A DNA stretch of 64,000 bases from NCBI GenBank assembly GCA_000002445.1, contig CP000067.1, positions 896,001 to 960,000 on the forward strand. Direction: 5' to 3'. The position numbers and the translations under genes are program-made. This document shows positions 19,934-64,000 of the stretch, piece after piece (the first letter of the stretch is position 1; every line of letters starts with the position of its first letter). This stretch comes from Trypanosoma brucei. Taxonomy: Eukaryota. Below the pieces are notes generated by a model that ran no database searches, had not been told where the DNA came from, and worked only from the letters and a program-made list of their open reading frames with translations.

Positions 19934-19965
19934 CCTGAACTCCGGGCAGTACTTGTACGTGCGCA

Positions 19966-21990: not shown

Positions 21991-22022
21991 CCTGAACTCC
22001 GGGCAGTACTTGTACGTGCGCA

Positions 22023-26780: not shown

Positions 26781-26818
26781 AAACGAAAGCAAAGAAAGAT
26801 GGAAGGAAAGGGAAAAAG
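26781..26818 (-). promoter_or_regulatory. Polypyrimidine tract upstream of PP1 copy 1 (repeated upstream of copies 2 and 3 at +1921 and +3842)
   Basis: Plus strand aaacgaaagcaaagaaagatggaaggaaagggaaaaag, about 170-200 nt upstream of the ATG at 26612. Confidence 0.4.
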
Positions 26819-44043: not shown

Positions 44044-47000
44044 TTAATGCTTTTCCTTATTATTTAAAAAGGAAACCTCGTGTATCTGATCTCCAGGGAC
44101 GTGACAAGCGTTACCCGCATCAATTACAAATGCGGACATAAGCGCTTCAGGGCGATCAGTAATCAGTTTCATCCATTCGTTTCCGTCAAACACCTTAACG
44201 TGACGCGTGATGACCTTCTCCTTCTTGGTGGTGGGATCAGTCCACAACTCACAGTGCTCCCGCAAAAATACCAATTCCTTTTCTTTTGACGCACAGAGTG
44301 ACTCCAATGCGCTGTTTGTACCATTCAGTCCCTTCAATTGAGTTAGTAAGTCAACTATCTCTGCTTCAAGTGTAGCTAATGCAGTTTCTTTTTCAGATGA
44401 TAAAAGGGTCAGTTTTTCCTCTAAATGCTTAACCTTACACTGCAGTGCGCTATTGGCTGAGTCAGCCTCGAGTAGCCGCGCGCTAGTATCCTCGGCCAAC
44501 AACTCCTTCTCCGACAGACGTTGGGTCACCTCCTCTGCGAGCCTCTTATTCTCGGCAACCTTCAGCTCCAGCTCTTCTGCAAGTTTCTCATTCTCGGCAG
44601 CCTTCAGCTCAAGCTCTTCTGCAAGTTTCTCATTCTCGGCAGCCTTCAGCTCCAGCTCTTCTGCAAGCTTCTCATTCTCGGCAGCCTTCAGCTCAAGCTC
44701 TTCTGCAAGTTTCTCATTCTCGGCAACCTTCAGCTCCAGCTCTTCTGCAAGTTTCTCATTCTCGGCAGCCTTCAGCTCAAGCTCTTCTGCAAGTTTCTCA
44801 TTCTCGGCAACCTTCAGCTCAAGCTCTTCTGCAAGCTTCTCATTCTCGGCAGCCTTCAGCTCAAGCTCTTCTGCAAGTTTCTCATTCTCGGCAGCCTTCA
44901 GCTCCAGCTCTTCTGCAAGCTTCTCATTCTCGGCAGCCTTCAGCTCAAGCTCTTCTGCAAGTTTCTCATTCTCGGCAGCCTTCAGCTCAAGCTCTTCTGC
45001 AAGCTTCTCATTTTCGGCAGCCTTCAGCTCAAGCTCTTCTGCAAGCTTCTCATTTTCGGCAACCTTCAGCTCAAGCTCTTCTGCAAGCTTCTCATTCTCG
45101 GCAGCCTTCAGCTCAAGCTCTTCTGCAAGCTTCTCATTTTCGGCAACCTTCAGCTCAAGCTCTTCTGCAAGCTTCTCATTCTCGGCAGCCTTCAGCTCAA
45201 GCTCTTCTGCAAGTTTCTCATTCTCGGCAACCTTCAGCTCAAGCTCTTCTGCAAGCTTCTCATTCTCGGCAGCCTTCAGCTCAAGCTCTTCTGCAAGTTT
45301 CTCATTCTCGGCAACCTTCAGCTCAAGCTCTTCTGCAAGCTTCTCATTCTCGGCAGCCTTCAGCTCAAGCTCTTCTGCAAGCTTCTCATTTTCGGCAGCC
45401 TTCAGCTCAAGCTCTTCTGCAAGTTTCTCATTCTCGGCAGCCTTCAGCTCAAGCTCTTCTGCAAGCTTCTCATTTTCGGCAGCCTTCAGCTCAAGCTCTT
45501 CTGCAAGCTTCTCATTCTCGGCAACCTTCAGCTCAAGCTCTTCTGCAAGCTTCTCATTTTCGGCAGCCTTCAGCTCAAGCTCTTCTGCAAGCTTCTCATT
45601 CTCGGCAACCTTCAGCTCAAGCTCTTCTGCAAGCTTCTCATTCTCGGCAGCCTTCAGCTCAAGCTCTTCTGCAAGTTTCTCATTCTCGGCAGCCTTCAGC
45701 TCAAGCTCTTCTGCAAGTTTCTCATTCTCGGCAGCCTTCAGCTCCAGCTCTTCTGCAAGCTTCTCATTCTCGGCAGCCTTCAGCTCAAGCTCTTCTGCAA
45801 GCTTCTCATTTTCGGCAGCCTTCAGCTCAAGCTCTTCTGCAAGCTTCTCATTCTCGGCAGCCTTCAGCTCAAGCTCTTCTGCAAGTTTCTCATTCTCGGC
45901 AGCCTTCAGCTCAAGCTCTTCTGCAAGTTTCTCATTCTCGGCAACCTTCAGCTCAAGCTCTTCTGCAAGCTTCTCATTTTCGGCAACCTTCAGCTCAAGC
46001 TCTTCTGCAAGTTTCTCATTCTCGGCAGCCTTCAGCTCAAGCTCTTCTGCAAGTTTCTCATTCTCGGCAGCCTTCAGCTCAAGTTCTTCCATGAGTCTTT
46101 GTACCTGAACATTAAGATTCCGGATGTCACTGCGACTTTTGTTATTTTCAAGAACTAGTTGTTCGTTTTCAGCGGTTTTTCTCTGTATCTCCTCCGCCAA
46201 GCGCTCGTTCTGCAGGGTAACTCCGGACCTATCCCTTTCTTCTCTTTCAAGTTCCTCATGCATATTGTGCAGTTGCTCGCTTAGGCTTTGATTTTCTGCC
46301 ATAAGTTGCTCTAATCTGTCGTGGAGATTTTCTCGCTCGTCATTGGCTTGTTGAAGCTGCTGTCGCAACAGATCGTTTTCTTGCTGGAACTGGTTACTTC
46401 GATGCATATGGTCGTTGTACTCATCCAACGTCACCGAAAGCAGTGGTTCACTACTTATTTCGTCTGCGCTAACCATTTCCTGAAACGGCTTGGTTTGCGT
46501 CCCAATGGGTCGTAACGTAGGTTCAAGAGAGCGAACCTTGTGGGCATTTTGCCGTTTCTCTCTGTATGCCATGAGTTCCGCCTCCTGTTTGTCGAACAAC
46601 TCTTCTAGGTTGTTATAATGCTTTCGCAACTCTTCCAGCAATGCAGTTGTCTTGATATGGTCATCGATCTCACCCTCAAGCCTCTGCTGAAGATCAGATA
46701 TTTCCCTATCGCGCGCCTCAATGTGTGCTTGTGCGCTCTTCTCGGCCGCCCTGAGTGCCTCCAACTGTTCATCTAACTGTTCCAGATTCTCTAAGAGTCC
46801 CTCAATTTCCGCCTGTTTCTCTTCCAAGCGTTGAGTCATTTCTGAAAGCCCCTGCTCAGACAGTCTTGATTTCTCCTCCATCTGCCGAAGCTCGGCTTCG
46901 AGCCTCTCACACTCCGCTTCTAACTTTTCCTTTTCTTCCGAAACACCGCTTAACTCTGCCAGAAGGTCGTCCTGGGCGTTGAGAAGATTCTGGCACTGCT

Positions 47001-49122
47001 CCCGCTGCCGCTCTAGCTCCCGTTCAACTTGGTCACAGTGCTCCGTTTGCTCGCGGAGCTCGTCAAGGGTCACGCAGTAAACCGGTTCCGCGGTATCGTC
47101 CCCTCTGAAAGTCGACAAATTGCGCTGTGCACGTATTTGATTCGCCTGGGTTTTTTGGAGTTTCAATAACTCAAGTTCACTCGCCTGGTTATCGGCAAGA
47201 TCCCTAAGCTTTTCAACCAAATCACGCAAACGACCGATCTCAGCATGAAGCTCACCATTTCGCTGTCGCAGCGACTCCTGTTCGCGCATGGTTGATGCTG
47301 TCTGCCGGCGAAACTCCTCGGCGGATTTCTCAAGCGTGTACTGCAGTGAACGGTTCTCGTTATGGATTTTGTCCAGAAGCATAAGCAGGTCTCCTATCTC
47401 GCTTTCATACGCATCCTTATCGCCTACGCGGCCCTTCATAGCAACCTCTTCAATAAACTTGTCGAACGTCATACCGCGGAATGCATGCTCCCTGAGATCA
47501 AATGCGCGGCACACCTCAACAATTGCACGATCCAAACCCTTTTTGGGTTGGTCGACGTCGCAAAGCATCCGATCCATTCCACGGGAAGGAAATTCTTGCA
47601 GCCGCTTATTTATCTCCGCGGCAGTTTGTTTCACTGGGTGTTGAACGTCAAACGACACCTGTAGCTTCTCCGATGTAGCAGTGAACTCAATATTCCTAAT
47701 AGCATCCTCAGGAACATGGCAGGCCGCAGCCTGCTCGGTCCTGAATGTCGACAGAAGCTCCTCTGGCTTGCGTTCAACAACCTTCGACCACTCCCTCCCC
47801 GGATAAGACTTTCTGTGCTTGGTGGTGACGGTGGGTTCGTTCCGGTACATCCAACGCTCATCATGGCTGCTCAGTTCCTTGATAATTTCTTGTAAGTCCT
47901 TAATATTATTTGCAGAATCGCCTCTGGGGGCCTCAACAGACCTTAACCCGACGTCGGTTTCGATTCTTTCACGACGCGGAGCATTTGTCTTGCCTGCGTT
48001 TGTAAACAAACTGAACACGAAACGCTCCTGTAAATTCAAACGCCTTTCTTCAAGTTCGCTCGTGTACATTGAAAGGCAATGAAGCTCGGCCATCGCCTCC
48101 ATGTAGCTGTTAGATAAATGAGAAAAGTGATCATTTATCTGGAGGCGAGTTTGCTCTGCCTTATCGAGTATCAACCCCACTTCATCGTCAGTTAATACGC
48201 AGTCCTGTGCTGAAGGATCAACTCCCACAATGGATATGACGGAGGAGAGGGGAGCCTTAAGCTGCACCGACGTTTTGGTGAATGATGTTAACTGACCTCC
48301 GAATGTCGGCGTCCCTCCCCGTTCGAGCTCCTCCTTCAGCTTCATCACCTTCAAACGGCAGCCCTTCATTCCCGCAATGCAGTTTGCAATGGCATCATTT
48401 TGTTCCTGCACTCGTGTGTCCGTTGTCAGACGGCAGTACGCTTCCTGATACGCTAAAGCACTTAATACCCAGTGATGTAAGCTGCTGATTGCCTCAGAAT
48501 CTCGTGATGCAGCCAGTGACGAAAGACGCTGCTCGTTTAGTGATGAACATATCTCTTCAGCGTTAGGGTACGTTTTCCCAGTGATGTCTGCGCTTATGAA
48601 ATCTGCAATGGCATTCGGCCTCCGGTATTCCATACGAATGTCGTCCCATGTGGAGCAGTTGGTTACTGTCGGGTCGTTTTGTGCCAGCGCGAGCACAGAC
48701 TTGAGAACCTCAACGGCAACTGGAGAGGGGCATGCTTGAGACGTTACTTCCCGCATGTGCACTTCGTCAACGCTCGCCACACGCGCCTTGGCATCCTCAA
48801 ACACGGCGCGTGCGGCAGAAACGCGGTCTTCGTTTTCGCTGCGGATGGCAGCCAGTTTATCACGCGCACTGGAGAGCTGCTCCTGAAACACGCCCATGCG
48901 CTTCATCTCCTTCTGAATTTCGCTGGATATATTGTGCTTCAGCGTCTCGCAGCTACCTTCATTGACTGCCCACTGCTCCACGACAACAACATGTTTGTCG
49001 GAAGAGACGACCGTGCCCAAAGCCCACTGCCAGTGCTCTCCGTTTGCCAAATGATCGAATGCAATAACTTGGCCAGGCTGTAAAGTTAGTGGGTTTTCAC
49101 TGATAACATTCAGAAGAGCCAT
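44044..49122 (-). CDS. FAZ1: Giant coiled-coil repeat protein (1692 aa), FAZ1-like (flagellum attachment zone protein 1)
   Basis: It has a globular N-terminal region, then long coiled-coil, then about 37 tandem 14-aa repeats (ELELKAAENEKLAE / ELELKVAENEKLAE), then a coiled-coil C-terminus. Size and 14-aa repeat architecture match my recollection of T. brucei FAZ1. This attribution is from memory and is not searchable here. Confidence 0.75.
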   Translation of the reverse strand: MALLNVISENPLTLQPGQVIAFDHLANGEHWQWALGTVVSSDKHVVVVEQWAVNEGSCETLKHNISSEIQKEMKRMGVFQEQLSSARDKLAAIRSENEDRVSAARAVFEDAKARVASVDEVHMREVTSQACPSPVAVEVLKSVLALAQNDPTVTNCSTWDDIRMEYRRPNAIADFISADITGKTYPNAEEICSSLNEQRLSSLAASRDSEAISSLHHWVLSALAYQEAYCRLTTDTRVQEQNDAIANCIAGMKGCRLKVMKLKEELERGGTPTFGGQLTSFTKTSVQLKAPLSSVISIVGVDPSAQDCVLTDDEVGLILDKAEQTRLQINDHFSHLSNSYMEAMAELHCLSMYTSELEERRLNLQERFVFSLFTNAGKTNAPRRERIETDVGLRSVEAPRGDSANNIKDLQEIIKELSSHDERWMYRNEPTVTTKHRKSYPGREWSKVVERKPEELLSTFRTEQAAACHVPEDAIRNIEFTATSEKLQVSFDVQHPVKQTAAEINKRLQEFPSRGMDRMLCDVDQPKKGLDRAIVEVCRAFDLREHAFRGMTFDKFIEEVAMKGRVGDKDAYESEIGDLLMLLDKIHNENRSLQYTLEKSAEEFRRQTASTMREQESLRQRNGELHAEIGRLRDLVEKLRDLADNQASELELLKLQKTQANQIRAQRNLSTFRGDDTAEPVYCVTLDELREQTEHCDQVERELERQREQCQNLLNAQDDLLAELSGVSEEKEKLEAECERLEAELRQMEEKSRLSEQGLSEMTQRLEEKQAEIEGLLENLEQLDEQLEALRAAEKSAQAHIEARDREISDLQQRLEGEIDDHIKTTALLEELRKHYNNLEELFDKQEAELMAYREKRQNAHKVRSLEPTLRPIGTQTKPFQEMVSADEISSEPLLSVTLDEYNDHMHRSNQFQQENDLLRQQLQQANDERENLHDRLEQLMAENQSLSEQLHNMHEELEREERDRSGVTLQNERLAEEIQRKTAENEQLVLENNKSRSDIRNLNVQVQRLMEELELKAAENEKLAEELELKAAENEKLAEELELKVAENEKLAEELELKVAENEKLAEELELKAAENEKLAEELELKAAENEKLAEELELKAAENEKLAEELELKAAENEKLAEELELKAAENEKLAEELELKAAENEKLAEELELKAAENEKLAEELELKVAENEKLAEELELKAAENEKLAEELELKVAENEKLAEELELKAAENEKLAEELELKAAENEKLAEELELKAAENEKLAEELELKAAENEKLAEELELKVAENEKLAEELELKAAENEKLAEELELKVAENEKLAEELELKAAENEKLAEELELKVAENEKLAEELELKAAENEKLAEELELKVAENEKLAEELELKAAENEKLAEELELKAAENEKLAEELELKAAENEKLAEELELKAAENEKLAEELELKAAENEKLAEELELKVAENEKLAEELELKAAENEKLAEELELKVAENEKLAEELELKAAENEKLAEELELKAAENEKLAEELELKAAENEKLAEELELKVAENKRLAEEVTQRLSEKELLAEDTSARLLEADSANSALQCKVKHLEEKLTLLSSEKETALATLEAEIVDLLTQLKGLNGTNSALESLCASKEKELVFLREHCELWTDPTTKKEKVITRHVKVFDGNEWMKLITDRPEALMSAFVIDAGNACHVPGDQIHEVSFLNNKEKH
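44509..46085. repeat. 42-bp (14-codon) in-frame tandem repeat, about 37 copies, inside the FAZ1-like CDS
   Basis: Period-42 repetition of ctcggcagccttcagctcaagctcttctgcaagcttctcatt. Variants gcagcc/gcaacc give A/V, and ctcaag/ctccag and aagctt/aagttt are synonymous. Confidence 0.9.
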
Positions 49123-52100
49123 AATTGGAGCACTTCTAAAGCGACTTAATCCGGAGTTCGCGAATCCCTATATCCTTGCGGAAGTGCTATTTTATTTTTT
49201 CCTACCCACTGTTGTTGCTTGACTTGTTTTCCCTCTCCGATGTCGAGGAGAGAAATTTAATTTTACGTAGAGAAAAATGGCATAGGTGTATGGTCACATT
49301 TTTTTCTGTGCGACCGCAGGGGCAGGCAGAGCAAGATGATCCACATCCACCTGTTCCTTTCTTGCAGAACTCCAACCCCGACACAGAAAGGGTTTACAAT
49401 AGATATATCGGTACTGCATCAACTGCTGCAGCTTCCGAAGGAGGTTGCAGGTGTTTACCACAAGTATAAACAAAATAAATATGTTATCGCGTGCAAAAAG
49501 CTGCTTCTTAAACGCGCAAGAAAATAAAGTCCTCTGTTAATCCTTACGCACACCTCGAAGGGGCACAAAGACATGTTACGCAGAACTACGCGAAGAAAGA
49601 CGGTATTGTATGCTATCGCCCTCCCCTATAGCCACGTTAACATAAATAGTGAAACGCTGAAATGGGTTAGTCGTGCAAACGTAACACCCCTCCCGCACAC
49701 ACTCGCTGATCCCTCCTCATATACGCCTTTACTGGGGCGGGTAACGCTGCGCACGTCACTTCACATCCCTTTGCACAATAATCTTGACGCTCTGTTTGGA
49801 CCATGTGCTTTATTTCCGTTACGGAACACTACAAAGATATAAGCACCGAATGAACAGCTGTGAGGGAATCAGTCGAGTATTCAAAAAAAAAAAATGCCCC
49901 TTCCGACTATATAAGAGCAACCACATATTCGTCAATCGATTTGTTCCTTTATACGAAATTTTCTAACTGCAAAGGTAACTACAACAACCTCATTAGTAAA
50001 CAGCTAAACAAAAAATCTACACACAAACGTCGGCACGAGAGTGCCTATGAATTGAAACAAAGAAATTACAGAATACACACCCTGACACGCAAAATACGCT
50101 CGCTCGCTGACAGCGTAGGTAGGCGGGTAAAGGACAAACCACTGTAAATATTTTATTCTTAATACCTTTTCACACACGCTGAACAAAAATGTGATAACAT
50201 CGGTAACTGTCCGCTTTAGCTTGTGTTTTTCTTTAAGATACCAGTCTCTAGTAACAGAAAGCGGTAGCTGTCCTGATTATCCTTGTGAACTACAAAATCA
50301 ACGCCATTTCGTTCCTGTAAATGGTCAGATAATGTCCACAACAGTACCAGATGGTATAATATTTGATAAAATGGCACGCAATGCGACAACTTCATGGCAT
50401 CAGACAAGCAGGACAAATCAAATACTTCCACTTCGCCATCGATGCAGATTCTGTGGCGGAAGGAGCACGGCAGCACAACGGCAAGTATTAATGCTGCGCA
50501 TTCAACGACGTGCTGTTACTTGCACTCCTCATTTATTACAACAATAGGAAATACAGAACACCACCATAACCCCTCGTAAGCGTAGTGTTTTAACTTGGAG
50601 AAATCCCACACCAAAAGATACCTGGATATTCGGAAGTTGCTATAAAAACAAACACTCTATGGGTCCAACTAAGTGTATCGTGACGATCATTTTCATTTTT
50701 TTTTTCCTAATCCAGTGAGATATGCTTCTGCTTCCCTTGATCATATGTGTTGCTTCATTTTACTCCCTGGGTTTATTACTGTTCTATGCTTGATAGCCGT
50801 TTCACCTTCGGCACAGCGAAGCATTGAGAACCGGAACGGATATAAAAGCCACTTGCGCTTGGAACGAATCATTTTCGTGAGCACCGGTGATAATAAAAGT
50901 GAATGCGGCAAACTGATGGGCATAGCAGTGACCGCCACAAAAGCAACTATAGCACGACCCCTTCTCAACATGTAAATATGGTGTCCCCCTACATAGCCCG
51001 GTGTTTTGGTGCAAGTATCCGAACGACAAAGAGTAATCAATTTCCCGTTTTTCACTACAAAAATACAAGAGAACATAAGCTAAAAATACCGGATCTCACT
51101 GTATGAATAGAAACACAATAACGTGCAAACGTGCAATGCCTTGCCAACGCGTAGCTTATGTAAAGTCATCCATTTATTTACGCAACATGAAACACACACC
51201 CTGATGTTAAAAACACAGAGGTGGGACAAACCCCCCTCCTGCGGGTACGCTGTGGTAAGGAAATAAAGACATCAGACAACGTACTGTTAATTAAAGTTAA
51301 ACGAAAGTTCATTCCGTCGCCGACTGTCAGCTCAACGCATATGTATTTTTCCAAGCAGAATCATCACAGTTTTTTTCTTGATATGGATACCATTTTATAC
51401 AATAACGGCATTAACCACGTCTTTCTCAAATGACATTGCTTCGCTATCCCAACACTAACATCTGGCAACCACTCTATGTATACTCTGTTTCACATCTACT
51501 GCGTCCTGACTCTGTGATGCAGATTATAAACCTTGGTACCGCAAAATAGAAGCTTTAATAGCACTGAACCACATAGTTACTCGAAACTACCCAACGCTTT
51601 GAACCACCGCATGCAAAAGCCGGAATGAATCAGGACATGCGTAGCATCAAGAAGTAAACATAAGCTCACGGAAGTGAAATTCAACTATTTATCGCATTGG
51701 GATAACTCGAACAATGCTCCGTTAGAGACCCACCGTATGTTTCAGTTGAACGAATACTAAAAACGCTCGGTCTCTGCTTGAAAAATTTGAAGTCCCTTCT
51801 ATATCAATAACTAAGTGGTCGCGCTTCAATAGTCGTGCGCTCCAAAAGAAAGAAGGAGAGCTAGAAATTTTTCGGTGAGTATAGTACAAGAAATTTGCAA
51901 AGAGGCATGAGTAAATGAACTTCGGGGGAATGTTTGAGCAACGAGAGTACCGTATCTGAATGCGAGGTAAGACTCAGTGTACTTGTTAGTGGCGCTTACC
52001 ATCTTCACCTGCCTTGTTGACTAGTGCTGAAAAACGAGAGGAATAAAAGTGCCGCGGGCATAAAGCCAAAAGGCAAGCCAACTTGGTAATCTATTTATTT

Positions 52101-55100
52101 TTTTAACGGAGGTATCAATAATAACTTCAACAGAGGTTGAAACGAGGATACTTAGTGTGGAAAGGGCTGATGAATACATCTAGGACGCGAACCGGTAAGT
52201 ACCTTAATTTCGGGTAAATGATAATAATAATAATAACCGTATTTCTCCAGTAGTCATACCATAAACCGAGCACATGCATAATGAGTTGTTAAAACACGCA
52301 CACTATCTTCATTGTCACCAGTGTATGACACCCAACGCTGATCAAGCGCGTAGGCAACATATTACAAACGGGTGTTAAGTTGTATGAAATATGGCACTGT
52401 TTCAAATGCTACCCCCTTCTCAACAGCGTCAGTACACCTCGCACTGCAGTCGGACGAAGGCACAGATGTGACACCCAACGTCACGGTGTTTCAACAAGAC
52501 GCTTGCAGAGCGTGCAGAAAAGTGATTCCTTTGCGGCTGTGCCTATGCGCGCACCCCATTACCATCAGTACTCCCGAACAGGAACCCACCTTCCGAGACG
52601 ACAACAACGGCTGGTATAAAGATCAACGACCATGCACTTGCCAGCGCGCAGCGGACGCAACTCATAGACCCATAAAAGCATGAATTCAATAAAACAATAG
52701 CAACACCAATGTGAAAACGTCTGCGATAGCGCCGCCACCTTCATTCACCCGGTCCACTGCACTGCGCACCGCTCCCACACCGATAGGTGCCAGAGGCATC
52801 GATGAACGACTACTTCGCAGCACCTCCAAAACGGTTTTAGACAGAAATTAGCAGGGCCGCCGGCTCGCCCGGGCACTAAAGCAATCCCTTAAACTACCTG
52901 AAACCTGGCGGAAGACCCCACGGAAACGCACGGGCGGAGGCCTACAGAGAAAGGCGCCCCGCTACGCACAGGCGCCCTCGCCGGCTCACAAAAAGGAAAC
53001 CATGCGTACCTCCCACTCACGAGACACACCACAACCGCCGAACCCCATACCGTGTGGACGTCCCCCGCGCGCAGGGGGAACCACGGGTTTACTGCTGCAG
53101 TCCCGTCACCCCAGCAGCGAACACGCGGATCCCTCGCGATAGCCGAAAACAAAGCAGAGGGAAATGACTCGCGTCTGTCGGGGCCGCGGACGCCAGCGCC
53201 TCAACAGGTCAACTTTGGGCAGAACCTCCTCAGGTCGGGGACGTCAAGAGCCCCCACGTGGCACCGGGGTTGAGTACATCATTAAAGGGGAGGCCAAACG
53301 ACTGTTCGCACCCTGTCATCAGGGAGACATGGCAGCTCGCCGGCTGTTGGTTGTTGGGGTAATGGGAGAAGTGGAAACGATATTGGCTCCCTGATGTGGG
53401 AACCGATATCTTTGTTGTCCCTTGCACGCTCTTGCATGTTCCCGTGGGCGTGTAGGGGCAACTCCCGTTGTGGAGAAGATATCAGAGGCAACTGTAATTC
53501 ACCTACTGGCGTATGGTAAGGGACTGTCTCTTCAAATTTTTTTGGGGGAAAAGGAAGGCTTCTTTTGCGTTTTGAAGGGGACATACATCCACGCGACGAA
53601 GAAGTGAACTGCAAAATGATGCCTGTATTTCCGGAGCATTGATATAGCAAACCCTTCTAGGGGTTGACGAGTGTCAAAATCGGCAGAAAATAGCACAGGT
53701 AGAATGCAAGGCTCGTAACAAAATGGGGACTGGAAGAGTGCCAGCTAAACCGAAACTCGCTCAGGAGTAGTGGAACACACTCGTGTCAATATTTTTCTGT
53801 GGCCAAATCTGGAATCACCTGACCACTACTGGAAGGTTGCATGGAAGAGATAGTTTGAAGGTTTGCAGAAAGGCAATGGAGTAGCAATTCGACGAAGGAG
53901 GAAACTTAAATACCCCACATATCACGCGGAATGCTGCCTTGGAATAGGATTCCGCAGAATATGAGGGATAAATGTTATTGCCGCCTGAAGGAATAATAGT
54001 CACTTATAGGGATAGGGGTTTACGATGGGAATTAGGCAGTTCCTTCAGCTGTTGGAAGTTTTGAAGCAAATAGACAAGACAGAAAAAACAATGAACTTCC
54101 TGAGGAATCAGAGCAGGCAATGCAAAAGGCACTGACCGAAGCGCAGAGTAGAACACGATACAAATGTAGATGGTGCGATTATTAGCGTGTTCATGTGTCG
54201 GGGCCCATTCTGCACACAAGGAACAAACACTCGGTGGAAGTTGGAATGAAAAAAGATACAAATGATAAAGCATCTCCGGCATCAAAGACAGCTCCAAAGA
54301 CCCTCCAACGCTCGCAGTACAAAATGCGTGCAACAAAGTGACCTCACTGAACTCATGCAGCGGAAAGGCGAATGCAAAATAGGAAAAAAAGCACAACACT
54401 GTAAAAAGTGGGTACTACTCATCTTCCCTAAAACCGTCACAACACCCCTCCCCAGGAAGCGCTGCGTAGAGAAAGCGGTCGAAAATGCCGCAAACAGATG
54501 GTTGCCGTTTCGCATGCAACTGGCACGTTTCCATGCAAGCTATTTCAACCAAAGGATTTGGAGCTAAACACAGAGGAGCGTCAACAGACTCAAGATAACT
54601 GTCAAAGGAATTCACACTGAAACGACCATGGGTTGGGAAAAAGGAAAAGGGGGACTACTTCGCCGACGGCCAAGCCTACCTACATTCCGCCACGCCATAC
54701 TTTGAAGAACCCGGCGTGTGAGTGCTGCTTGCGGCCGAGGGCACACAACTCATTGGCGCAAAAGGTGACAGTCACGCGGCGGTGTGGAACCGCACGATTC
54801 GATCAGATACTAGGGGAATAACTTTACTGCGGCGCCATGTCGGTAAGTAGCTTCGGGCCAACAAAAAACTGGCGATAGCACCAAGTGTGCGTGCCAACAT
54901 CGGGAGCTCACACCTGATGCGTCACCCCTCAAGGGAAGTGCGGGGCGCACCAATGGATGTCATAGAACTTCACCGAGCAGTGATGGTCAACATCTCCTCG
55001 ATATGAGTGTGTGGAACGTACGGGGTGAGCCCATTCGCCAACAGCTTCTCTGCATTCGTAGACCAAATCCAAACGGAGAAATTTTCTCAGGACAGCCGAC

Positions 55101-55974
55101 GAACTCTGACGGAAGAATTGGAACTGGTGGAACGCGCACGAATTGGAGAAATGTCTGAGGTGCGGCATCCGTGTTGCAACCGCAGGGGTTGTTCCTTGAA
55201 TCACAGCCACACCACAACACTCAACACCTCAACTTACTAAACTCGATAAGGGGATTGCGAGGTGTCATCGCTCATTGAATGGGGGAACTGGTCGACATGC
55301 AGAGGTAGCTTCCAGGCCGCATGACAAATGAAGGGTGTTTCGTGCCGTTCTGAGAGCACAAGGCTCCGGTCCGTTGCAACTGGTGCGTCAAGAAAGTGTA
55401 CGCGTCGGGGCCATTCAACCTCCTGGCGGCTATATGAGACGGTGCTCCAAAACCGACTACCGGCAGGAGAAACATTTCGTTGATCCCTACGCGCCCCGGG
55501 CAACAGATTACTTATCCTCGCCCTTAAGGCATTCGACGTGAGTTTATGGAATGGAATCGTACCTGCTGCACGGGAGAGTTATCAATAATTTCCATACAGA
55601 AACACCCTAAGAAGGTGGAGCGTTTGGATGTCCACGAGGCGGTGAAAGCGATGAGTTGCGCGCGCAAAGCCATCGAGAACATCGTTGGTAATGGAATTGG
55701 GGACTTTATGAGGGAGGGGCCCACACTAGAACCGGGATTTCGGCCGGGTCGCCCCACGCTAAGGCTGCTTCAGCGCTTCCAGATGGCCCTTGGTCACCCG
55801 TCGCCGTCGCACATGGGAGCGGCATTCATAGTTTACGCGAATGCCTTGGATGTCACACGGAAAGCGGCTGATGGTTTTATTTTACAGCAGAATGAAAGGA
55901 ACAAAAGTTGGCAAAACACTGTTAAACAGCCGGACGCTTGCAAGAGGCATAAAGCAACTGCATCAGAGCGCACT

Positions 55975-58211
55975 GTGCCCCTCAGCCTCGGACTCGCAGA
56001 GCCAACTCTTGGAAGCATTTCCGCTATCACATGACGGCTTTTTTGCGGATAATTTGGCGCTATCGGCGCGATGCACGAAGAGGGACCCCGAAGACCGCAC
56101 ACCGCAGGGCAGCCCCGGCGTTGTGATACAATGGCAGCAAAAGTGACTTATGTACGCCCGCACGCCGGTGACGAAATGCAAACTGCTCAGTTACATTGAA
56201 CACTTATCGTCAATGTAACATCACGGTGGGGCTCGGGCTGGGGTTGGAAAAGTACCGAAGATGTTTTGGGACGGCGCGCTGCGCAAACACAGCGAATAGC
56301 AAGCCGCAGGGCGCTGAAAATAGAAACCGTTTGGGCGACGGCGTATCACCCAGATGAGGCGTTGCGTGCTTTACACTTCCGGTTTTTACAATTACGTGAC
56401 ACGTGCAGAGCTGATGTGTGGCATTAGTGCGTCTCAGAAGGTATTCGAGAGGCGACCGGAGCGGAGCGGCACAAAGACAGCCAAACCATCGAGGATGTAT
56501 CGCACGCGCACTATACAACCCCACCCGTAACTTCGTGCCGGGACGGAAGCCGCTGATCCAAACTTCTCCAACGCCTTCCTTTTCAATGCAACAGGGCCTT
56601 CCGCGGGAAGATAAGGCCCGTGTGCGCAAACTGTCCCGGAGAGGCTTAGATCGGCGAATGGACATTCTTAAACCAGAGGTCCGGCCAGACCCTCAGCCCA
56701 AGTGAGGACGAAAAAACGATACATCAGGTCAACAAAAGCGGCGGCGCACTTGCACGTGGGCGCTGTGTAGGACCCCTTGCACTGGCGGTGGGCCTGCGAA
56801 AGGCACCGAATCCCTTCCTAATTCACAAGGCGGTGCTGCCCAGCCTCTCGATATACCCGCTTTCGTTCTCCACCATGCCGGAGGCGAGCGCAGTTACCAT
56901 TACTGACCCGTCCCTGCACAAATTGCGGTGGTCAGCTGTGACAATACCGGGCAGGAACAATTGCATTAGACCACAGTTTGTACTCCCCTGCTGCGGCGTG
57001 GCATTGAACGAAGGCGCGCGGCGAAATTGCGAAGAATGTCGTTGGCATGTCACAGTTGCCCGACCGGGGGTTTGCAGACACCGCGGCCTATTCGAAGCGT
57101 TTGTTGTGATCTGGGGAAATATACTCGGGGGCCCACCGGGACACATTTCACGACCAAATGCAAAGAATGGATGCGCGGGCCGACAGCGTTGGCTGGCACT
57201 GCTGGTGGTCGCCGCACAAAATCAACTCATGGGTGGCCCGTTCCACCGGTGGCAGGAACCGTAATTTCCACTGGCGACGCTTGCACCCCAACCAATCCCA
57301 ACGACCACGACCTCGGTGTTAACAACCTTCTTTCACGCTGAGGGACAAAAAAGGTGTACTAATTGCGGTGCGATATGGCAAACACCGAACGAGTGCAGTG
57401 ACGAATATGGCGGCGGATCTTCTGGCGTAGGCGCGTTCTTTTGAAAAATGAAATGCGGTGATGCGTCGCGTCCAGCGTATGATCCATCAGAACCCATGCA
57501 ACCGCGGCCCGTACTGGCGCCTTCGCGAGTATCAACAACAGCAAGCCTCAACACTAAACATTCAAAGGCGTCACGACGGCACCACCTTCGCAGCCACATT
57601 TGTGATACAAAGCAATCGGTTCGCGAGCTAAACAGGTCTTGAATTGAAAAGCAGGATGCAAGATGTAAAGCAATAACTACAAGACAGCGCATCTACCGCA
57701 AGAAAACATTGTTTTACCCAACAAGCTACCATGCCCCGGAGGCAACATAGCCAACACCAAACGACACCGCCATCCTGCAGAAGTTCTGCTTCTCCGGTCG
57801 CCTTGAATAACTTCAACTCACCACAAAACGACTCCAGCGCTTGACGCCACTCTTAGCTACGACTATTGAAAAACAGGGTAAACAGGAACAAAAATCATAC
57901 AGCACCCCCATTAACAAGAGAATAGACAGAAAAAACTAAGCAACAAACAAAGAAGTGGAAAAGTAGGCAAGTCAGCAAGTCTAACATCTAGCATCGCCTC
58001 CTCACCCTTCAACAAACACACACCCAAAAGACAAAACAATGCACGAAAAATATTCACATCAGCAAAAGAAAAAAAACCAAAAATACAAAATAAAGAAAAA
58101 AACAACATTTATCAGCGGTGAAGAGAACGGTACAACTAAAGAAAAAACAAGAATAAAAAAAGACACAATCAACAAACACAAAACATATTAAAACCAGCGA
58201 CAAATGGGTAT
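55975..58211. repeat. Inverted repeat, left arm (at least 2.2 kb) flanking the 147-bp array
   Basis: Reverse complement of 61776..64000. Paired ORF translations show 98-99% identity (57333..57692 minus = 62286..62645 plus; 56210..56665 minus = 63313..63768 plus). The arm start is set by the window end on the partner arm. Confidence 0.85.
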
Positions 58212-61200
58212 GATTGTGCAACACTGTTTTTGCACAATCATACGCATAAACGCGTATTTGACGTGAAAATACGCAATAGTGCACAATTTGCACACAAACA
58301 TGCCACATTGTGCATGTTATGCAAGAATGCGTGTTTTGCACCAAAACACCTTACATATTGCATTGCAACACTGTTTTTGCGCAATCATACGCATGAACGC
58401 GTATTTGACGTGAAAATACGCAATAGTGCACAATTTGTGAACAAACATGCCACATTGTGCATGTTATGCAAGAATGCGTGTTTTGCACCAAAACACCTTA
58501 CATATTGCATTGCAATACTGTTTTTGCACAATCATACGCATAAACGCGTATTTGACGTGAAAATACGCAATAGTGCACAATTTGCACACAAACACGCCAC
58601 ATTGTGCATGTTATGCAAGAATGCGTGTTTTACACCAAAACACCTTACATATTGCATTGCAACACTGTTTTTGCGCAATCATACGCATGAACGCGTATTT
58701 GACGTGAAAATACGCAATAGTGCACAATTTGCACACAAACATGCCACATTGTGCATGTTATGCAAGAATGCGTGTTTTACACCAAAACACCTTACATATT
58801 GCATTGCAACACTGTTTTTGCACAATCATACGCATAAACGCGTATTTGACGTGAAAATACGCAATAGTGCACAATTTGCACACAAACATGCCACATTGTG
58901 CATGTTATGCAAGAATGCGTGTTTTGCACCAAAACACCTTACATATTGCATTGCAACACTGTTTTTGCGCAATCATACGCATAAACGCGTATTTGACGTG
59001 AAAATACGCAATAGTGCACAATTTGCACACAAACATGCCACATTGTGCATGTTATGCAAGAATGCGTGTTTTACACCAAAACACCTTACATATTGCATTG
59101 CAATACTGTTTTTGCACAATCATACGCATAAACGCGTATTTGACGTGAAAATACGCAATAGTGCACAATTTGCACACAAACACGCCACATTGTGCATGTT
59201 ATGCAAGAATGCGTGTTTTACACCAAAACACCTTACATATTGCATTGCAACACTGTTTTTGCGCAATCATACGCATGAACGCGTATTTAACGTGAAAATA
59301 CGCAATAGTGCACAATTTGCACACAAACACGCCACATTGTGCATGTTATGCAAGAATGCGTGTTTTACACCAAAACACCTTACATATTGCATTGCAACAC
59401 TGTTTTTGCGCAATCATACGCATGAACGCGTATTTGACGTGAAAATACGCAATAGTGCACAATTTGCACACAAACACGCCACATTGTGCATGTTATGCAA
59501 GAATGCGTGTTTTACACCAAAACACCTTACATGTTGCATTGCAACACTGTTTTTGCGCAATCATACGCATAAACGCGTATTTGACGTGAAAATACGCAAT
59601 AGTGCACAATTTGCACACAAACACGCCACATTGTGCATGTTATGCAAGAATGCGTGTTTTACACCAAAACACCTTACATGTGGCATTGCAACACTGTTTT
59701 TGCGCAATCATACGCATAAACGCGTATTTGACGTGAAAATACGCAATAGTGCACAATTTGCACACAAACACGCCACATTGTGCATGTTATGCAAGAATGC
59801 GTGTTTTACACCAAAACACCTTACATATTGCATTGCAACACTGTTTTTGCGCAATCATACGCATGAACGCGTATTTGACGTGAAAATACGCAATAGTGCA
59901 CAATTTGCACACAAACACGCCACATTGTGCATGTTATGCAAGAATGCGTGTTTTACACCAAAACACCTTACATGTTGCATTGCAACACTGTTTTTGCGCA
60001 ATCATACGCATAAACGCGTATTTGACGTGAAAATACGCAATAGTGCACAATTTGCACACAAACATGCCACATTGTGCATGTTATGCAAGAATGCGTGTTT
60101 TGCACCAAAACACCTTACATATTGCATTGCAACACTGTTTTTGCACAATCATACGCATAAACGCGTATTTGACGTGAAAATACGCAATAGTGCACAATTT
60201 GCACACAAACATGCCACATTGTGCATGTTATGCAAGAATGCGTGTTTTACACCAAAACACCTTACATATTGCATTGCAATACTGTTTTTGCACAATCATA
60301 CGCATAAACGCGTATTTGACGTGAAAATACGCAATAGTGCACAATTTGTGAACAAACATGCCACGTTGTGCATGTTATGCAAGAATGCGTGTTTTACACC
60401 AAAACACCTTACATGTTGCATTGCAACACTGTTTTTGCGCAATCATACGCATAAACGCGTATTTGACGTGAAAATACGCAATAGTGCACAATTTGCACAC
60501 AAACATGCCACATTGTGCATGTTATGCAAGAATGCGTGTTTTGCACCAAAACACCTTACATATTGCATTGCAACACTGTTTTTGCACAATCATACGCATA
60601 AACGCGTATTTGACGTGAAAATACGCAATAGTGCACAATTTGCACACAAACATGCAACATTGTGCATGTTATGCAAGAATGCGTGTTTTACACCAAAACA
60701 CCTTACATATTGCATTGCAACACTGTTTTTGCGCAATCATACGCATGAACGCGTATTTGACGTGAAAATACGCAATAGTGCACAATTTGCACACAAACAT
60801 GCCACATTGTGCATGTTATGCAAGAATGCGTGTTTTGCACCAAAACACCTTACATATTGCATTGCAACACTGTTTTTGCACAATCATACGCATAAACGCG
60901 TATTTGACGTGAAAATACGCAATAGTGCACAATTTGTGAACAAACATGCCACATTGTGCATGTTATGCAAGAATGCGTGTTTTGCACAAAAACACCTTAC
61001 ATGTTGCATTGCAACACTGTTTTTGCGCAATCATACGCATGAACGCGTATTTGACGTGAAAATACGCAATAGTGCACAATTTGTGAACAAACATGCCACA
61101 TTGTGCATGTTATGCAAGAATGCGTGTTTTGCACCAAAACACCTTACATGTTGCGTTGCAACACTGTTTTTGCGCAATCATACGCATGAACGCGTATTTG

Positions 61201-61780
61201 ACGTGAAAATACGCAATAGTGCACAATTTGCACACAAACATGCCACATTGTGCATGTTATGCAAGAATGCGTGTTTTGCACCAAAACACCTTACATATTG
61301 CATTGCAACACTGTTTTTGCGCAATCATACGCATGAACGCGTATTTGACGTGAAAATACGCAATAGTGCACAATTTGTGAACAAACATGCAACGTTGTGC
61401 ATGTTATGCAAGAATGCGTGTTTTGCACCAAAACACCTTACATATTGCATTGCAACACTGTTTTTGCGCAATCATACGCATGAACGCGTATTTGACGTGA
61501 AAATACGCAATAGTGCACAATTTGTGAACAAACATGCAACGTTGTGCATGTTATGCAAGAATGCGTGTTTTGCACCAAAACACCTTACATATTGCATTGC
61601 AACACTGTTTTTGCACAATCATACGCATGAACGCGTATTTGACGTGAAAATACGCAATAGTGCACAATTTGTGAACAAACATGCCACATTGTGCATGTTA
61701 TGCAAGAATGCGTGTTTTGCACAAAAACACCTTACATATTGCATTGCAACACTGTTTTTGCACAATCATACCCATTTGTC
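58200..61780. repeat. 147-bp AT-rich satellite, about 24 tandem copies (CIR147-like candidate centromeric repeat)
   Basis: Exact 147-bp periodicity (e.g. tacgcat[a/g]aacgcg at 58241 and 58388) with a small set of recurring unit variants. A 1229-aa open frame is an artefact of 147 = 3 x 49. Confidence 0.9.
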
Positions 61781-64000
61781 TCTGGTTTCAATATGTTTTG
61801 TGTTTGTTGATTGTGTCTTTTTTTATTCTTGTTTTTTCTGTAGTTGTCCCGTTCTCTTCACCGCTGATAGATGTTTTTTTTTCTTTATTTTGTATTTTTG
61901 GTTTTTTTTCTTTTGCTGATGTGAATATTTTTCGTGCATTGTTTTGTCTTTTGGGTGTGCGTTTGTTGAAGGGTGAGGAGGCGATGCTAGATGTTAGACT
62001 TGCTGACATGCCGACTTTTCCACTTCTTTGTTTGTTGCTTAGTTTTTTCTGTCTATTCTCTTGTTAATGGGGGTGCTGTATGATTTTGGTTCCTGTTTAC
62101 CCTGTTTTTCAGTAGTCGTAGCTAAGAGTGGCGTCAAGCGCTGGAGTCGTTTTGTGGTGAGTTGAAGTTATTCAAGGCGACCGGAGAAGCAGAACTTCTG
62201 CAGGATGGCGGTGTCGTTTGGTGTTGGCTATGTTGCCTCCGGGGCATGGTAGCTTGTTGGGTAAAACAATGTTTTCTTGCGGTAGATGCGCTGTCTTGTA
62301 GTTATTGCTTTACATCTTGCATCCTGCTTTTCAATTCAAGACCTGTTTAGCTCGCGAACCGATTGCTTTGTATCACAAATGTGGCTGCGAAGGTGGTGCC
62401 GTCGTGACGCCTTTGAATGTTTAGTGTTGAGGCTTGCTGTTGTTGATACTCGCGAAGCCGCCAGTACGGGCCGCGGTTGCATGGGTTCTGATGGATCATA
62501 CGCTGGACGCGACGCATCACCGCATTTAATTTTTCAAAAGAACGCGCCTACGCCAGAAGATCCGCCGCCATATTCGTCACTGCACTCGTTCGGTGTTTGC
62601 CATATCGCACCGCAATTAGTACACCTTTTTTGTCCCTCAGCGTGAAAGAAGGTTGTTAACACCGAGGTCGTGGTCGTTGGGATTGGTTGGGGTGCAAGCG
62701 TCGCCAGTGGAAATTACGGTTCCTGCCACCGGTGGAACGGGCCACCCATGAGTTGATTTTGTGCGGCGACCACCAGCAGTGCCAGCCAACGCTGTCGGCC
62801 CGCGCATCCATTCTTTGCATTTGGTCGTGAAATGTGTCCCGGTGGGCCCCCGAGTATATTTCCCCAGATCACAACAAACGCTTCGAATAGGCCGCGGTGT
62901 CTGCAAACCCCCGGTCGGGCAACTGTGACATGCCAACGACATTCTTCGCAATTTCGCCGCGCGCCTTCGTTCAATGCCACGCCGCAGCAGGGGAGTACAA
63001 ACTGTGGTCTAATGCAATTGTTCCTGCCCGGTATTGTCACAGCTGACCACCGCAATTTGTGCAGGGACGGGTCAGTAATGGTAACTGCGCTCGCCTCCGG
63101 CATGGTGGAGAACGAAAGCGGGTATATCGAGAGGCTGGGCAGCACCGCCTTGTGAATTAGGAAGGGATTCGGTGCCTTTCGCAGGCCCACCGCCAGTGCA
63201 AGGGGTCCTACACAGCGCCCACGTGCAAGTGCGCCGCCGCTTTTGTTGACCTGATGTATCGTTTTTTCGTCCTCACTTGGGCTGAGGGTCTGGCCGGACC
63301 TCTGGTTTAAGAATGTCCATTCGCCGATCTAAGCCTCTCCGGGACAGTTTGCGCACACGGGCCTTATCTTCCCGCGGAAGGCCCTGTTGCATTGAAAAGG
63401 AAGGCGTTGGAGAAGTTTGGATCAGCGGCTTCCGTCCCGGCACGAAGTTACGGGTGGGGTTGTATAGTGCGCGTGCGATACATCCTCGATGGTTTGGCTG
63501 TCTTTGTGCCGCTCCGCTCCGGTCGCCTCTCGAATACCTTCTGAGACGCACTAATGCCACACATCAGCTCTGCACGTGTCACGTAATTGTAAAAACCGGA
63601 AGTGTAAAGCACGCAACGCCTCATCTGGGTGATACGCCGTCGCCCAAACGGTTTCTATTTTCAGCGCCCTGCGGCTTGCTATTCGCTGTGTTTGCGCAGC
63701 GCGCCGTCCCAAAACATCTTCGGTACTTTTCCAACCCCAGCCCGAGCCCCACCGTGATGTTACATTGACGATAAGTGTTCAATGTAACTGAGCAGTTTGC
63801 ATTTCGTCACCGGCGTGCGGGCGTACATAAGTCACTTTTGCTGCCATTGTATCACAACGCCGGGGCTGCCCTGCGGTGTGCGGTCTTCGGGGTCCCTCTT
63901 CGTGTATCGCGCCGATAGCGCCAAATTATCCGCAAAAAAGCCGTCATGTGATAGCGGAAATGCTTCCAAGAGTTGGCTCTGCGAGTCCGAGGCTGAGGGG
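61776..64000. repeat. Inverted repeat, right arm; runs off the window end
   Basis: See left arm. The true extent is unknown. Confidence 0.85.

What the first reader, a model, noticed from the sequence alone, without database searches (positions are those of the whole stretch)
44044..49122. 1692-aa FAZ1-like coiled-coil protein with about 37 tandem 14-aa repeats; repeat variants record the array's history
The repeat ELELK[A/V]AENEKLAE is encoded by a 42-bp unit with only three variable sites. One non-synonymous change (gcc/acc giving A/V) and two synonymous changes alternate in a non-random, interspersed pattern, giving A-A-A-A-V-A-V-A… blocks. This is consistent with repeated unequal crossing-over or conversion. 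Such arrays are copy-number polymorphic between strains and are often collapsed or expanded in assemblies. Size, domain layout and genomic neighbourhood (PP1 and EF1B arrays, amastin-like genes) fit my memory of the T. brucei FAZ1 locus.
Basis: partly seen in the sequence, partly recalled or inferred. Interest (0 to 1): 0.5.

Follow-up and report, generated by a model that had tools for sequence, protein, structure and literature searches.

The report
Trypanosoma brucei FAZ1 gene, repeat array
This is the already well-studied Trypanosoma brucei gene FAZ1, a flagellum-attachment cytoskeleton protein; its 37-unit tandem repeat is real and differs in number and order from the sister subspecies, so the finding is correct but ordinary.

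Summary
The ORF at 44044-49122 (minus strand) is real. Its 1692-aa product is identical to UniProt Q585H6 / XP_844524.1, FAZ1 (Tb927.4.3740) of T. brucei brucei TREU927, so it is FAZ1 itself, not merely "FAZ1-like". The array is exactly 37 in-frame 42-bp units (window 46086..44533, aa 1013-1530).

Two details need correcting. Interior units have four variable sites, not three: one A/V site (GCT/GTT) and three synonymous sites. The non-randomness is modest: no two neighbouring units are identical (0 vs 4.95 expected, P≈0.002) and V-A-V is enriched (P≈0.017), but the A/V runs test alone is not significant.

The predicted copy-number variation is seen. T. b. gambiense DAL972 FAZ1 has 41 units in a very different order, while the flanking coding sequence differs at only 9 of 3525 nt. 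Assembly error cannot be excluded.

The neighbourhood claims (PP1, EF1B, amastin) hold. The gene lies next to the chromosome 4 centromeric 147-bp array, as published.

Two extras emerged. The N-terminus is a dynein stalk/microtubule-binding-domain-like module with no motor. The Leishmania orthologue is deposited in the PDB as mitoribosomal "mL100".

Verdict: already known, low interest.

The parts
44044..49122 (-). Complete FAZ1 coding sequence (Tb927.4.3740), 1692 aa plus stop
   Evidence: ORF list; exact identity to Q585H6 / XP_844524.1; Pfam FAZ1_C and FAZ1_cons
47995..49089 (-). N-terminal module, aa 12-376. It consists of a small beta domain (strands 19-54), a long helix (58-116), a cluster of short helices (120-234), a return helix (236-267), strands 279-310 and a helix 312-376. 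This is a dynein stalk/MTBD-like hairpin
   Evidence: AF2 model, pLDDT 74.8; Foldseek against PDB, top 46 hits all dynein stalk/MTBD, best E=3.8e-6; six-sequence profile hits yeast dynein MTBD at E=1.1e-7
48313..48960 (-). Core of the dynein stalk/MTBD-like region, aa 55-270
   Evidence: Aligned ranges. Orthologue P0007 and paralogue P0016 pass the Pfam PF12777 gathering score; the T. brucei protein itself does not
47563..47832 (-). FAZ1_cons domain, copy 1 (aa 431-520)
   Evidence: Pfam PF23398. AF2 model gives beta-alpha-alpha-beta-beta-alpha-alpha, pLDDT 70. No significant PDB fold match
46087..47355 (-). Non-repetitive alpha-helical rod, aa about 590-1012
   Evidence: Only weak coiled-coil-type Pfam matches (Rootletin, TPR_MLP1_2, TMF) and no enzymatic or motor domain. 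Sequence inspection
44533..46086 (-). Array of 37 x 42 bp (14 aa: ELELK[A/V]AENEKLAE), aa 1013-1530. The first unit carries a private synonymous change and the last unit is degenerate (ENKRLAE)
   Evidence: TRF; unit map; variable-site and adjacency statistics
44260..44532 (-). C-terminal non-repeat helical linker, aa 1531-1621
   Evidence: Sequence; identical in DAL972
44047..44259 (-). FAZ1_cons domain, copy 2 (shorter C-terminal type, aa 1622-1692)
   Evidence: Second Pfam PF23398 stretch; alignment A2; the same copy type sits at the C-terminus of the T. congolense, T. cruzi marinkellei and Leishmania orthologues

Best explanation
The locus is the known gene FAZ1 of Trypanosoma brucei TREU927, chromosome 4. 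It is the first gene of the minus-strand gene cluster that starts beside the centromere. [quoted passage not shown]

Anatomy (shown here): an N-terminal hairpin resembling the dynein stalk with its microtubule-binding domain but with no motor; two FAZ1_cons domains; and a helical rod of about 1000 residues whose distal half is the 37 x 14-aa array.

The array as protein (inferred): each 14-aa unit is two heptads. Across Trypanosoma species L2, K5, N9 and L12 never change, while positions 4, 6, 10 and 11 do. This fits a coiled coil with a = L2/N9 and d = K5/L12, and puts the A/V site at a flanking 'e' position. The array would then be a rod or spacer of about 77 nm, and each unit gained or lost would change its length by about 2 nm.

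The array as DNA (partly shown): it evolves by unequal exchange or slippage and by conversion between units, under purifying selection on the peptide. Within TREU927 the interior units carry only three synonymous changes and one conservative A/V change. The common unit types are older than the brucei/gambiense split, but their number and order have been reshuffled since.
For: Identity: exact match to Q585H6; Pfam FAZ1_C and FAZ1_cons; position next to the 147-bp centromeric array as in PMC1868937 Table 1.

N-terminal module. Trepout 2020 (PMC7394968) independently reported a Phyre2 dynein-stalk prediction.

Array turnover: 37 units in TREU927 against 41 in DAL972. Flanks differ at 9 of 3525 nt and 2 of 1174 aa. 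Unit types a-e are shared; G at col 6 is private to 927; ALDLK and ELDLK units are private to DAL972. The unit orders barely align outside the conserved first and last units.

Conversion or recombination: all four allele combinations occur for column pairs 6/17, 17/24 and 17/33.

Purifying selection and conserved register: T. congolense has 29 units of ELEQKSAENE[KR]LAE, and the cruzi clade has ELEQK[AT]AENERLA[ED].

Allelic length variation was already proposed for the FAZ1 western-blot doublet (Vaughan 2008, as cited in PMC5358337).
Against: The 927/DAL972 difference rests on two Sanger-era assemblies. The same TREU927 assembly holds only 3.6 kb of a chromosome 4 centromeric array; Echeverry 2012 measured these arrays at 20-120 kb across chromosomes (PMC3292466). 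So some of the difference could be assembly error, for example the run of 13 identical units in DAL972.

The coiled-coil register is inferred from conservation only. K5 at a 'd' position and a net charge of -3 per unit are not ideal for a canonical dimer.

Microtubule binding by the N-terminal module is untested, and its tip is net acidic (-2 to -7) whereas dynein MTBD fragments are 0 to +3.

The T. brucei sequence itself does not reach any Pfam PF12777 score.
Confidence: 0.9

Rival explanations
1. The difference in unit number and order between TREU927 and DAL972, and the absence of identical neighbours in TREU927, are products of assembly or finishing rather than biology. The true arrays may be the same, or both may be mis-sized.
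For: The same TREU927 assembly holds only 3.6 kb of a centromeric array type that was measured at 20-120 kb. DAL972 has a 546-bp run of 13 identical units, which is hard to size from reads. Several orthologue entries stop at or inside the array.
Against: The 1.55-kb TREU927 array is rich in distinguishing variants, with no identical neighbours, so overlapping Sanger reads can order it uniquely. DAL972 has private non-synonymous unit types (ALDLK, ELDLK) that cannot arise by collapse. The literature reports a FAZ1 protein doublet for which allelic repeat-number variation was one proposed explanation.
Confidence: 0.2
2. The variant pattern reflects only independent point mutations in a static array, with no unequal exchange or conversion.
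For: Only four sites vary. The A/V runs test alone is not significant (P=0.11), and there is no excess of repeated multi-unit blocks in TREU927.
Against: The same base change recurs in 4 to 20 units at each site. Three site pairs show all four combinations. Identical unit types are shared with DAL972 in a different order and number. Flank divergence is 0.26%, far too low for that many recurrent identical mutations.
Confidence: 0.03
3. FAZ1 is an active dynein-like motor that pulls the FAZ along subpellicular microtubules (the 'alternative pull' model of Trepout 2020).
For: Phyre2 predictions of 'dynein stalk and motor' reported in PMC7394968. The stalk/MTBD-like fold is confirmed here.
Against: Pfam detects no AAA+ or dynein motor domain anywhere in the 1692 aa at E<=0.1 for the whole protein, or at E<=1 for aa 380-1012. 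All fold matches cover only about 215-240 residues of stalk plus MTBD. The rest of the protein is FAZ1_cons, helical rod and repeats.
Confidence: 0.03
4. FAZ1 orthologues are, or are also, mitochondrial ribosome large-subunit proteins ('mL100').
For: PDB chains 7aih_BG, 7am2 and 7ane, named mL100, have the sequence of L. donovani TPP39988.1. That sequence has both the FAZ1 N-terminal module (E=6.7e-144) and the C-terminal FAZ1_cons (E=1.1e-11).
Against: No chain from any other PDB entry matches FAZ1, so no T. brucei or T. cruzi mitoribosome entry contains it. Foldseek with good models of both FAZ1 domains does not retrieve 7aih_BG, so the modelled part of that chain is not one of these domains. 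The paper's main text never mentions mL100. FAZ1 is localised to the FAZ filament by immuno-EM (PMC4827413).
Confidence: 0.07

Closest known systems
T. brucei FAZ1 (Tb927.4.3740; UniProt Q585H6; Vaughan et al. 2008)
   Same: Identical sequence over all 1692 residues, same Pfam domains, same chromosomal position beside the chromosome 4 centromere.
   Different: Nothing; it is this gene.
T. b. gambiense DAL972 FAZ1 (C9ZN16, 1748 aa)
   Same: Same architecture and synteny, including the 147-bp repeats about 9 kb upstream. Non-repeat protein differs at 2 of 1174 residues.
   Different: 41 units against 37; different order of unit types; a run of 13 identical units; two private unit types (ALDLK, ELDLK); lacks the CTG (col 6) variant.
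FAZ1 orthologues of other trypanosomatids (T. congolense, T. vivax, T. cruzi clade, Leishmania, Angomonas)
   Same: N-terminal stalk/MTBD-like module at 44-70% identity, FAZ1_cons domains, central repeats.
   Different: The Trypanosoma unit is ELE[L/Q]K[A/V/S/T]AEN[E/Q][K/R]LAE with species-specific variants. Leishmania has unrelated long repeats of 222 aa or 122 aa.
Dynein heavy chain stalk + microtubule-binding domain (Pfam PF12777; PDB 3ERR, 3WUQ, 5AYH, 6KJN)
   Same: Antiparallel helical hairpin with a small helical tip. Profile-to-sequence E=1.1e-7 and Foldseek E=3.8e-6 to 1e-4.
   Different: No AAA+ ring or linker. About 15-20% identity. The tip is net acidic. The T. brucei protein is below the Pfam threshold. 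Extra beta elements flank the hairpin.
Other repeat-bearing giant FAZ/cytoskeletal proteins of T. brucei (FAZ10, FLAM3, ClpGM6)
   Same: Repeat-rich FAZ proteins that migrate as doublets on gels (PMC5358337). FAZ10's assembled repeat region is suspected to be too short.
   Different: Different repeat units and sizes. FAZ1's predicted mass is given as 193 kDa in PMC4827413; I did not check it against the observed band size here.

Membership tests
FAZ1 (flagellum attachment zone protein 1) | Sequence identity to the reference FAZ1 protein | tested here: met
   Exact full-length match to Q585H6 / XP_844524.1 / AAZ10965.1
FAZ1 (flagellum attachment zone protein 1) | Pfam FAZ1_cons (PF23398) and FAZ1_C repeat (PF23404) above gathering score | tested here: met
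   150.5 bits against 27.5 (two copies) and 536.8 bits against 27.6
FAZ1 (flagellum attachment zone protein 1) | Chromosomal position: last gene before the chromosome 4 centromeric 147-bp array | tested here: met
   147-bp x 24.2 array at 58217-61775, 9.1 kb upstream, about 61.5% AT. This matches Table 1 of PMC1868937
FAZ1 (flagellum attachment zone protein 1) | Localisation to the FAZ filament and an attachment/segregation phenotype on depletion | not testable with these tools
   Taken from the literature only (PMC4827413, PMC5358337)
Dynein stalk / microtubule-binding domain (PF12777) | Stalk hairpin + MTBD fold | tested here: met
   Top 46 Foldseek PDB hits are dynein stalk/MTBD; profile E=1.1e-7 to yeast MTBD chains
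Dynein stalk / microtubule-binding domain (PF12777) | Pfam PF12777 gathering score reached by this protein | tested here: not met
   No PF12777 hit for T. brucei aa 1-378 even at E<=10. The Angomonas orthologue (25.6 against 24 bits) and paralogue P0016 (29.1 bits) do pass
Dynein heavy chain (motor) | AAA+ motor ring | tested here: not met
   No AAA or dynein motor family in the whole protein or in aa 380-1012
Dynein stalk / microtubule-binding domain (PF12777) | Binds microtubules | not testable with these tools
   The only indirect evidence argues against: the tip has net charge -2 to -7, whereas dynein fragments are 0 to +3
Two-heptad coiled-coil repeat | Hydrophobic a/d core with conserved register | tested here: inconclusive
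   The best conservation-based register has a = L2/N9 and d = K5/L12, and all cross-species variable positions fall on b, c or e. But only 2 of 4 core positions are strongly hydrophobic
Kinetoplastid mitoribosomal protein mL100 | Present as a modelled chain in mitoribosome structures of several kinetoplastids | tested here: not met
   Only three Leishmania entries (7AIH, 7AM2, 7ANE) carry a FAZ1-like chain, with no T. brucei or T. cruzi entry. Models of both FAZ1 domains do not retrieve that chain by fold

The most novel reading that the evidence does not exclude
FAZ1 and its shorter kinetoplastid paralogues (68 proteins in total at E<=1e-3 in 1.84 billion representatives) form a family of non-motor proteins. 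They have kept a dynein-derived stalk/MTBD hairpin as a passive anchor to the microtubule quartet or subpellicular microtubules. The strain-variable 14-aa array would set the reach of that anchor within the FAZ filament. In that case repeat-number alleles would be a natural series of 'ruler' variants.
Probability: 0.25. Interest if true: 0.5.

Novelty: already known. Interest (0 to 1): 0.12.

Why it matters
The gene, its repeats and the idea of allelic repeat-number variation are all in the literature, so the finding adds no new biology. It has practical value in three ways.

1. It gives a unit-resolved map of the array: four variable sites and 10 unit types in TREU927. This could serve as a genotyping marker, or as a check on assembly quality in T. 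brucei isolates.

2. It corrects a published suggestion that FAZ1 contains a dynein motor. Only the stalk/MTBD-like hairpin is present.

3. It flags that a Leishmania FAZ1 orthologue is named as a mitoribosomal protein in three PDB entries. That annotation can spread through databases and deserves a check.

Tried and rejected
1. The word-indexed homologue search with the N-terminal profile returned only one protein. The first such search returned five and omitted the T. brucei cluster itself. The exhaustive HMMER search was needed to see the family.

2. The look-up of encoding contigs found no record for the exact TREU927 protein, so no further isolates could be compared.

3. Vaughan et al. 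2008 (Protist) is not held. Its content is cited only through PMC5358337 and PMC4827413.

4. The supplement of the mitoribosome paper is not held and its main text never mentions mL100. Which residues of chain BG are modelled remains unknown.

5. FAZ1_cons fold search: no significant PDB match, best E=0.018 to a designed ferredoxin-like protein. The domain's fold class and function stay open.

6. Rfam found nothing in the window.

7. Pfam found nothing in the short ORFs of the 49-58 kb gene-poor region, including the inverted-repeat arms. The published 'degenerate DIRE' label could not be confirmed at protein level.

8. Multi-unit block duplication in the TREU927 array: no excess of repeated 3- or 4-unit strings. 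An 84-bp higher-order period is suggested only by lag-2 identity and V-A-V enrichment.

9. A single-alpha-helix (ER/K) reading of the repeat was considered. The unit has 5 acidic and 2 basic residues, which is not the balanced charge pattern I would expect of such domains (my own background knowledge), so it is not favoured. It was not tested.
Full report
OBSERVATION. The minus-strand ORF 44044-49122 starts with ATG and encodes 1692 aa. Tandem Repeats Finder reports a single 42-bp array at 44530-46089 with 37.1 copies, 95% matches and score 2805. In frame there are exactly 37 units of 14 aa, at aa 1013-1530 or window 46086 down to 44533. They comprise 26 ELELKAAENEKLAE, 10 ELELKVAENEKLAE and a degenerate last unit, ELELKVAENKRLAE.

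- col 6, CTT/CTG (synonymous)
- col 17, GCT/GTT (Ala/Val)
- col 24, GAG/GAA (synonymous)
- col 33, AAA/AAG (synonymous)

Unit 1 also has a private GAA, and unit 37 has five private changes. Two long plus-strand ORFs over the array are stop-free artefacts of the repeat.

IS THE PATTERN NON-RANDOM? Partly.
- Shuffling the units shows that no two neighbours are identical at the DNA level: 0 observed against 4.95 expected, P about 0.002. This becomes roughly 0.06 if corrected for all lags and tails I tried.
- Units two apart are identical more often than expected: 10 against 4.8, P=0.011. The P value rises to 0.06 once the lag-1 result is conditioned on.
- The V-A-V motif is enriched: 5 against 1.85, P=0.017.
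- The plain A/V runs test is not significant (P=0.11).
- There is no excess of repeated 3- or 4-unit blocks.

Three of the six site pairs show all four allele combinations. For units related by duplication, that requires either recurrent mutation or exchange and conversion with breakpoints inside units.

IDENTITY. The product is identical over its whole length to AAZ10965.1 / XP_844524.1 / UniProt Q585H6, 'Flagellar attachment zone protein 1', from T. brucei brucei TREU927, on a 1,590,432-bp contig. Pfam has dedicated models, and both match: FAZ1_C at E=2.2e-165 and FAZ1_cons at E=1.3e-44 with two copies. The gene is Tb927.4.3740 (PMC4827413, Table 1).

- three equal-sized PP1 genes plus further PP1-like ORFs (Metallophos with or without STPPase_N)
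- two EF1B genes (EF1_GNE)
- an amastin gene at 8574-9482
- also DUF2039, CBF/Mak21 and an L13 ribosomal protein

Upstream of FAZ1 there are no long ORFs. At 58217-61775 there is a 147-bp x 24.2 array with about 61.5% AT. Obado et al. 2007 list exactly this as the chromosome 4 centromeric repeat: 3.5 kb, 147-bp unit, 61% AT, between Tb927.4.3740 and Tb927.4.3750 (PMC1868937).

COPY-NUMBER AND ORDER VARIATION. The only other member of the 90% cluster is T. b. gambiense DAL972 FAZ1, at 1748 aa. The 56 extra residues are exactly four units, giving 41 against 37. The 1012-aa N-terminal and 162-aa C-terminal flanks differ at only two residues in total.

At the DNA level (locus L001) the flanking coding sequence differs at 9 of 3525 nt, yet the arrays barely align outside the conserved edge units:
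- Five unit types (a-e) are shared.
- The CTG (col 6) variant is found only in 927.
- The ALDLK and ELDLK units are found only in DAL972.
- DAL972 has a run of 13 identical units (lag-1 identity 20 against 10 expected, P=0.0002). TREU927 has none.

So the main variants predate the split and the arrays were reshuffled afterwards, provided both assemblies are right. Caution is warranted. The same TREU927 assembly holds only 3.6 kb of a centromeric array type that restriction mapping sized at 20-120 kb across chromosomes (PMC3292466).

FAZ1 database entries from T. conorhini and T. rangeli end inside the array, and the T. vivax entry ends just before it. This fits the remark that such arrays break assemblies. 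The FAZ1 doublet on western blots has been suggested to reflect either allelic repeat-number variation or post-translational modification (Vaughan 2008, as cited in PMC5358337).

THE REPEAT AS PROTEIN. T. congolense FAZ1 (1558 aa) has 29 units of ELEQKSAENE[KR]LAE. The T. cruzi clade has ELEQK[AT]AENERLA[ED]. Leishmania orthologues have unrelated repeats of 222 or 122 aa.

Within Trypanosoma, positions 1, 2, 3, 5, 7, 8, 9, 12, 13 and 14 are invariant, and positions 4, 6, 10 and 11 vary. Suppose the unit is read as two heptads with a = L2/N9 and d = K5/L12. Then every variable position is b, c or e, and the A/V site is an 'e' position (this is inference). That fits a coiled-coil rod, but half the core positions are polar and the unit carries net charge -3, so the oligomeric state is open. 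Assuming the textbook rise of about 0.148 nm per residue for a coiled coil, 518 residues would span roughly 77 nm, and one unit about 2 nm.

REST OF THE ANATOMY. A phmmer search of aa 1-378 against PDB sequences gave borderline hits to dynein stalk/MTBD chains (E=0.026). A profile of six FAZ1 N-termini raised this substantially:
- E=1.1e-7 against yeast dynein MTBD (6KJN, 6KJO, 6KIO)
- E=1e-4 to 7e-4 against full-length dynein heavy chains annotated 'putative' (9Y6S, 9E5C), spanning CC1-MTBD-CC2

The AlphaFold2 model has pLDDT 74.8. It shows a long helix (58-116), a cluster of short helices (120-234) and a return helix (236-267), flanked by beta elements. With Foldseek against the PDB, the top 46 hits are all dynein stalk/MTBD regions, with best E=3.8e-6.

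The T. brucei sequence itself does not reach Pfam PF12777. The Angomonas orthologue and a paralogue do. No AAA+ or other motor domain is detectable anywhere.

This resemblance is not new. Trepout 2020 reported Phyre2 'dynein stalk and motor' predictions for FAZ1 and built a pulling model on them (PMC7394968). My data support only the stalk/MTBD hairpin, so a passive anchor is more plausible than a motor. The tip is also net acidic (-2 to -7) where dynein MTBD fragments are 0 to +3, which is a caveat for tubulin binding.

An exhaustive HMMER search found 68 proteins with this module at E<=1e-3. About ten are orthologues. The rest are shorter proteins, and the named ones are from T. theileri, T. 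conorhini and T. cruzi. Two of the six scanned also carry FAZ1_cons.

FAZ1_cons models as a small beta-alpha-alpha-beta-beta-alpha-alpha domain (pLDDT 70) with no significant structural match.

AN ODDITY. The best PDB sequence match of the N-terminus is chain BG of 7AIH, 7AM2 and 7ANE, named 'mL100', in the Leishmania mitoribosome large subunit: E=3.6e-94 with the single sequence and 6.7e-144 with the profile. That chain is L. donovani TPP39988.1, which UniProt calls 'Flagellar attachment zone protein'. It also carries the C-terminal-type FAZ1_cons (E=1.1e-11). So it is a true FAZ1 orthologue.

Several points argue against a real mitoribosomal role:
- No chain from any other PDB entry matches, so no T. 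brucei or T. cruzi mitoribosome entry contains it.
- Neither of my two domain models retrieves the chain by fold.
- The paper's main text never mentions mL100.

I consider a doubtful or fragmentary assignment more likely than a real dual role, but I could not inspect the coordinates.

VERDICT. This is FAZ1 itself, a well-characterised gene with known repeats and a published hypothesis of allelic repeat-number variation. Novelty: already known. Interest: low. The useful residue is a corrected unit map, direct evidence from two assemblies for array turnover, a correction to the 'motor' reading of the N-terminus, and the mL100 annotation flag.

Noticed in passing
window 58217-61775: A 147-bp x 24.2 tandem array, 97% matches, about 61.5% AT. 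It is the chromosome 4 centromeric repeat of T. brucei, listed in Table 1 of PMC1868937 as lying between Tb927.4.3740 and Tb927.4.3750. Restriction mapping sized these centromeric arrays at 20-120 kb across chromosomes (PMC3292466), so this 3.6-kb copy is probably a collapsed assembly. A spurious 1229-aa ORF (58230-61919, +) runs through it.
   Followed up: partly
window 55978-58102 and 61876-64000: The centromeric array is flanked by inverted-repeat arms of at least 2125 nt that are 100% complementary and run to the end of the window. The literature calls these head-to-head degenerate DIRE retroelements. Pfam found nothing in their short ORFs. Perfect identity could reflect recent conversion or an assembly choice.
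   Followed up: partly
PDB 7aih_BG / 7am2 / 7ane (Leishmania), homologous to window 47995-49089 and 44047-44259: The Leishmania FAZ1 orthologue (L. donovani TPP39988.1) is deposited as mitoribosomal protein 'mL100'. No T. brucei or T. cruzi mitoribosome entry has such a chain, and the modelled part does not match either FAZ1 domain by fold. This may be a misassignment.
   Followed up: partly
window 48313-48960 (-), FAZ1 aa 55-270: A dynein stalk/MTBD-like hairpin with no motor domain. It is shared with a family of 68 proteins found by exhaustive search, most of them shorter than FAZ1 and not its orthologues. Phyre2 predicted the resemblance in 2020 (PMC7394968), but that paper interpreted it as a motor.
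   Followed up: yes
L001 13034-14761 (T. b. gambiense DAL972 FAZ1 array): A run of 13 consecutive identical 42-bp units (546 bp) and two private unit types (ALDLK, ELDLK). By contrast, TREU927 has no identical neighbours. This is either a recent expansion or an assembly artefact.
   Followed up: partly
window 17574-30454: Tandem gene families on the minus strand. There are three 294-aa PP1 genes spaced 1921 bp apart (25728, 27649, 29570), further PP1-like ORFs (17574-18554, 22599-23228), and two 261-aa EF1B genes (19105-19890, 21162-21947). Each EF1B gene contains the same 12-bp GGGGCAGCAGCG x 3.7 microsatellite (19505-19548, 21562-21605).
   Followed up: partly
window 49123-55977: About 7 kb upstream of FAZ1 has no ORF over 131 aa and no Pfam or Rfam match. 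All ORFs of 250 aa or more that do not overlap a longer minus-strand ORF lie on the minus strand from 3833 to 49122. FAZ1 therefore appears to be the first gene of this directional cluster next to the centromere. I did not look for a transcription start region.
   Followed up: no
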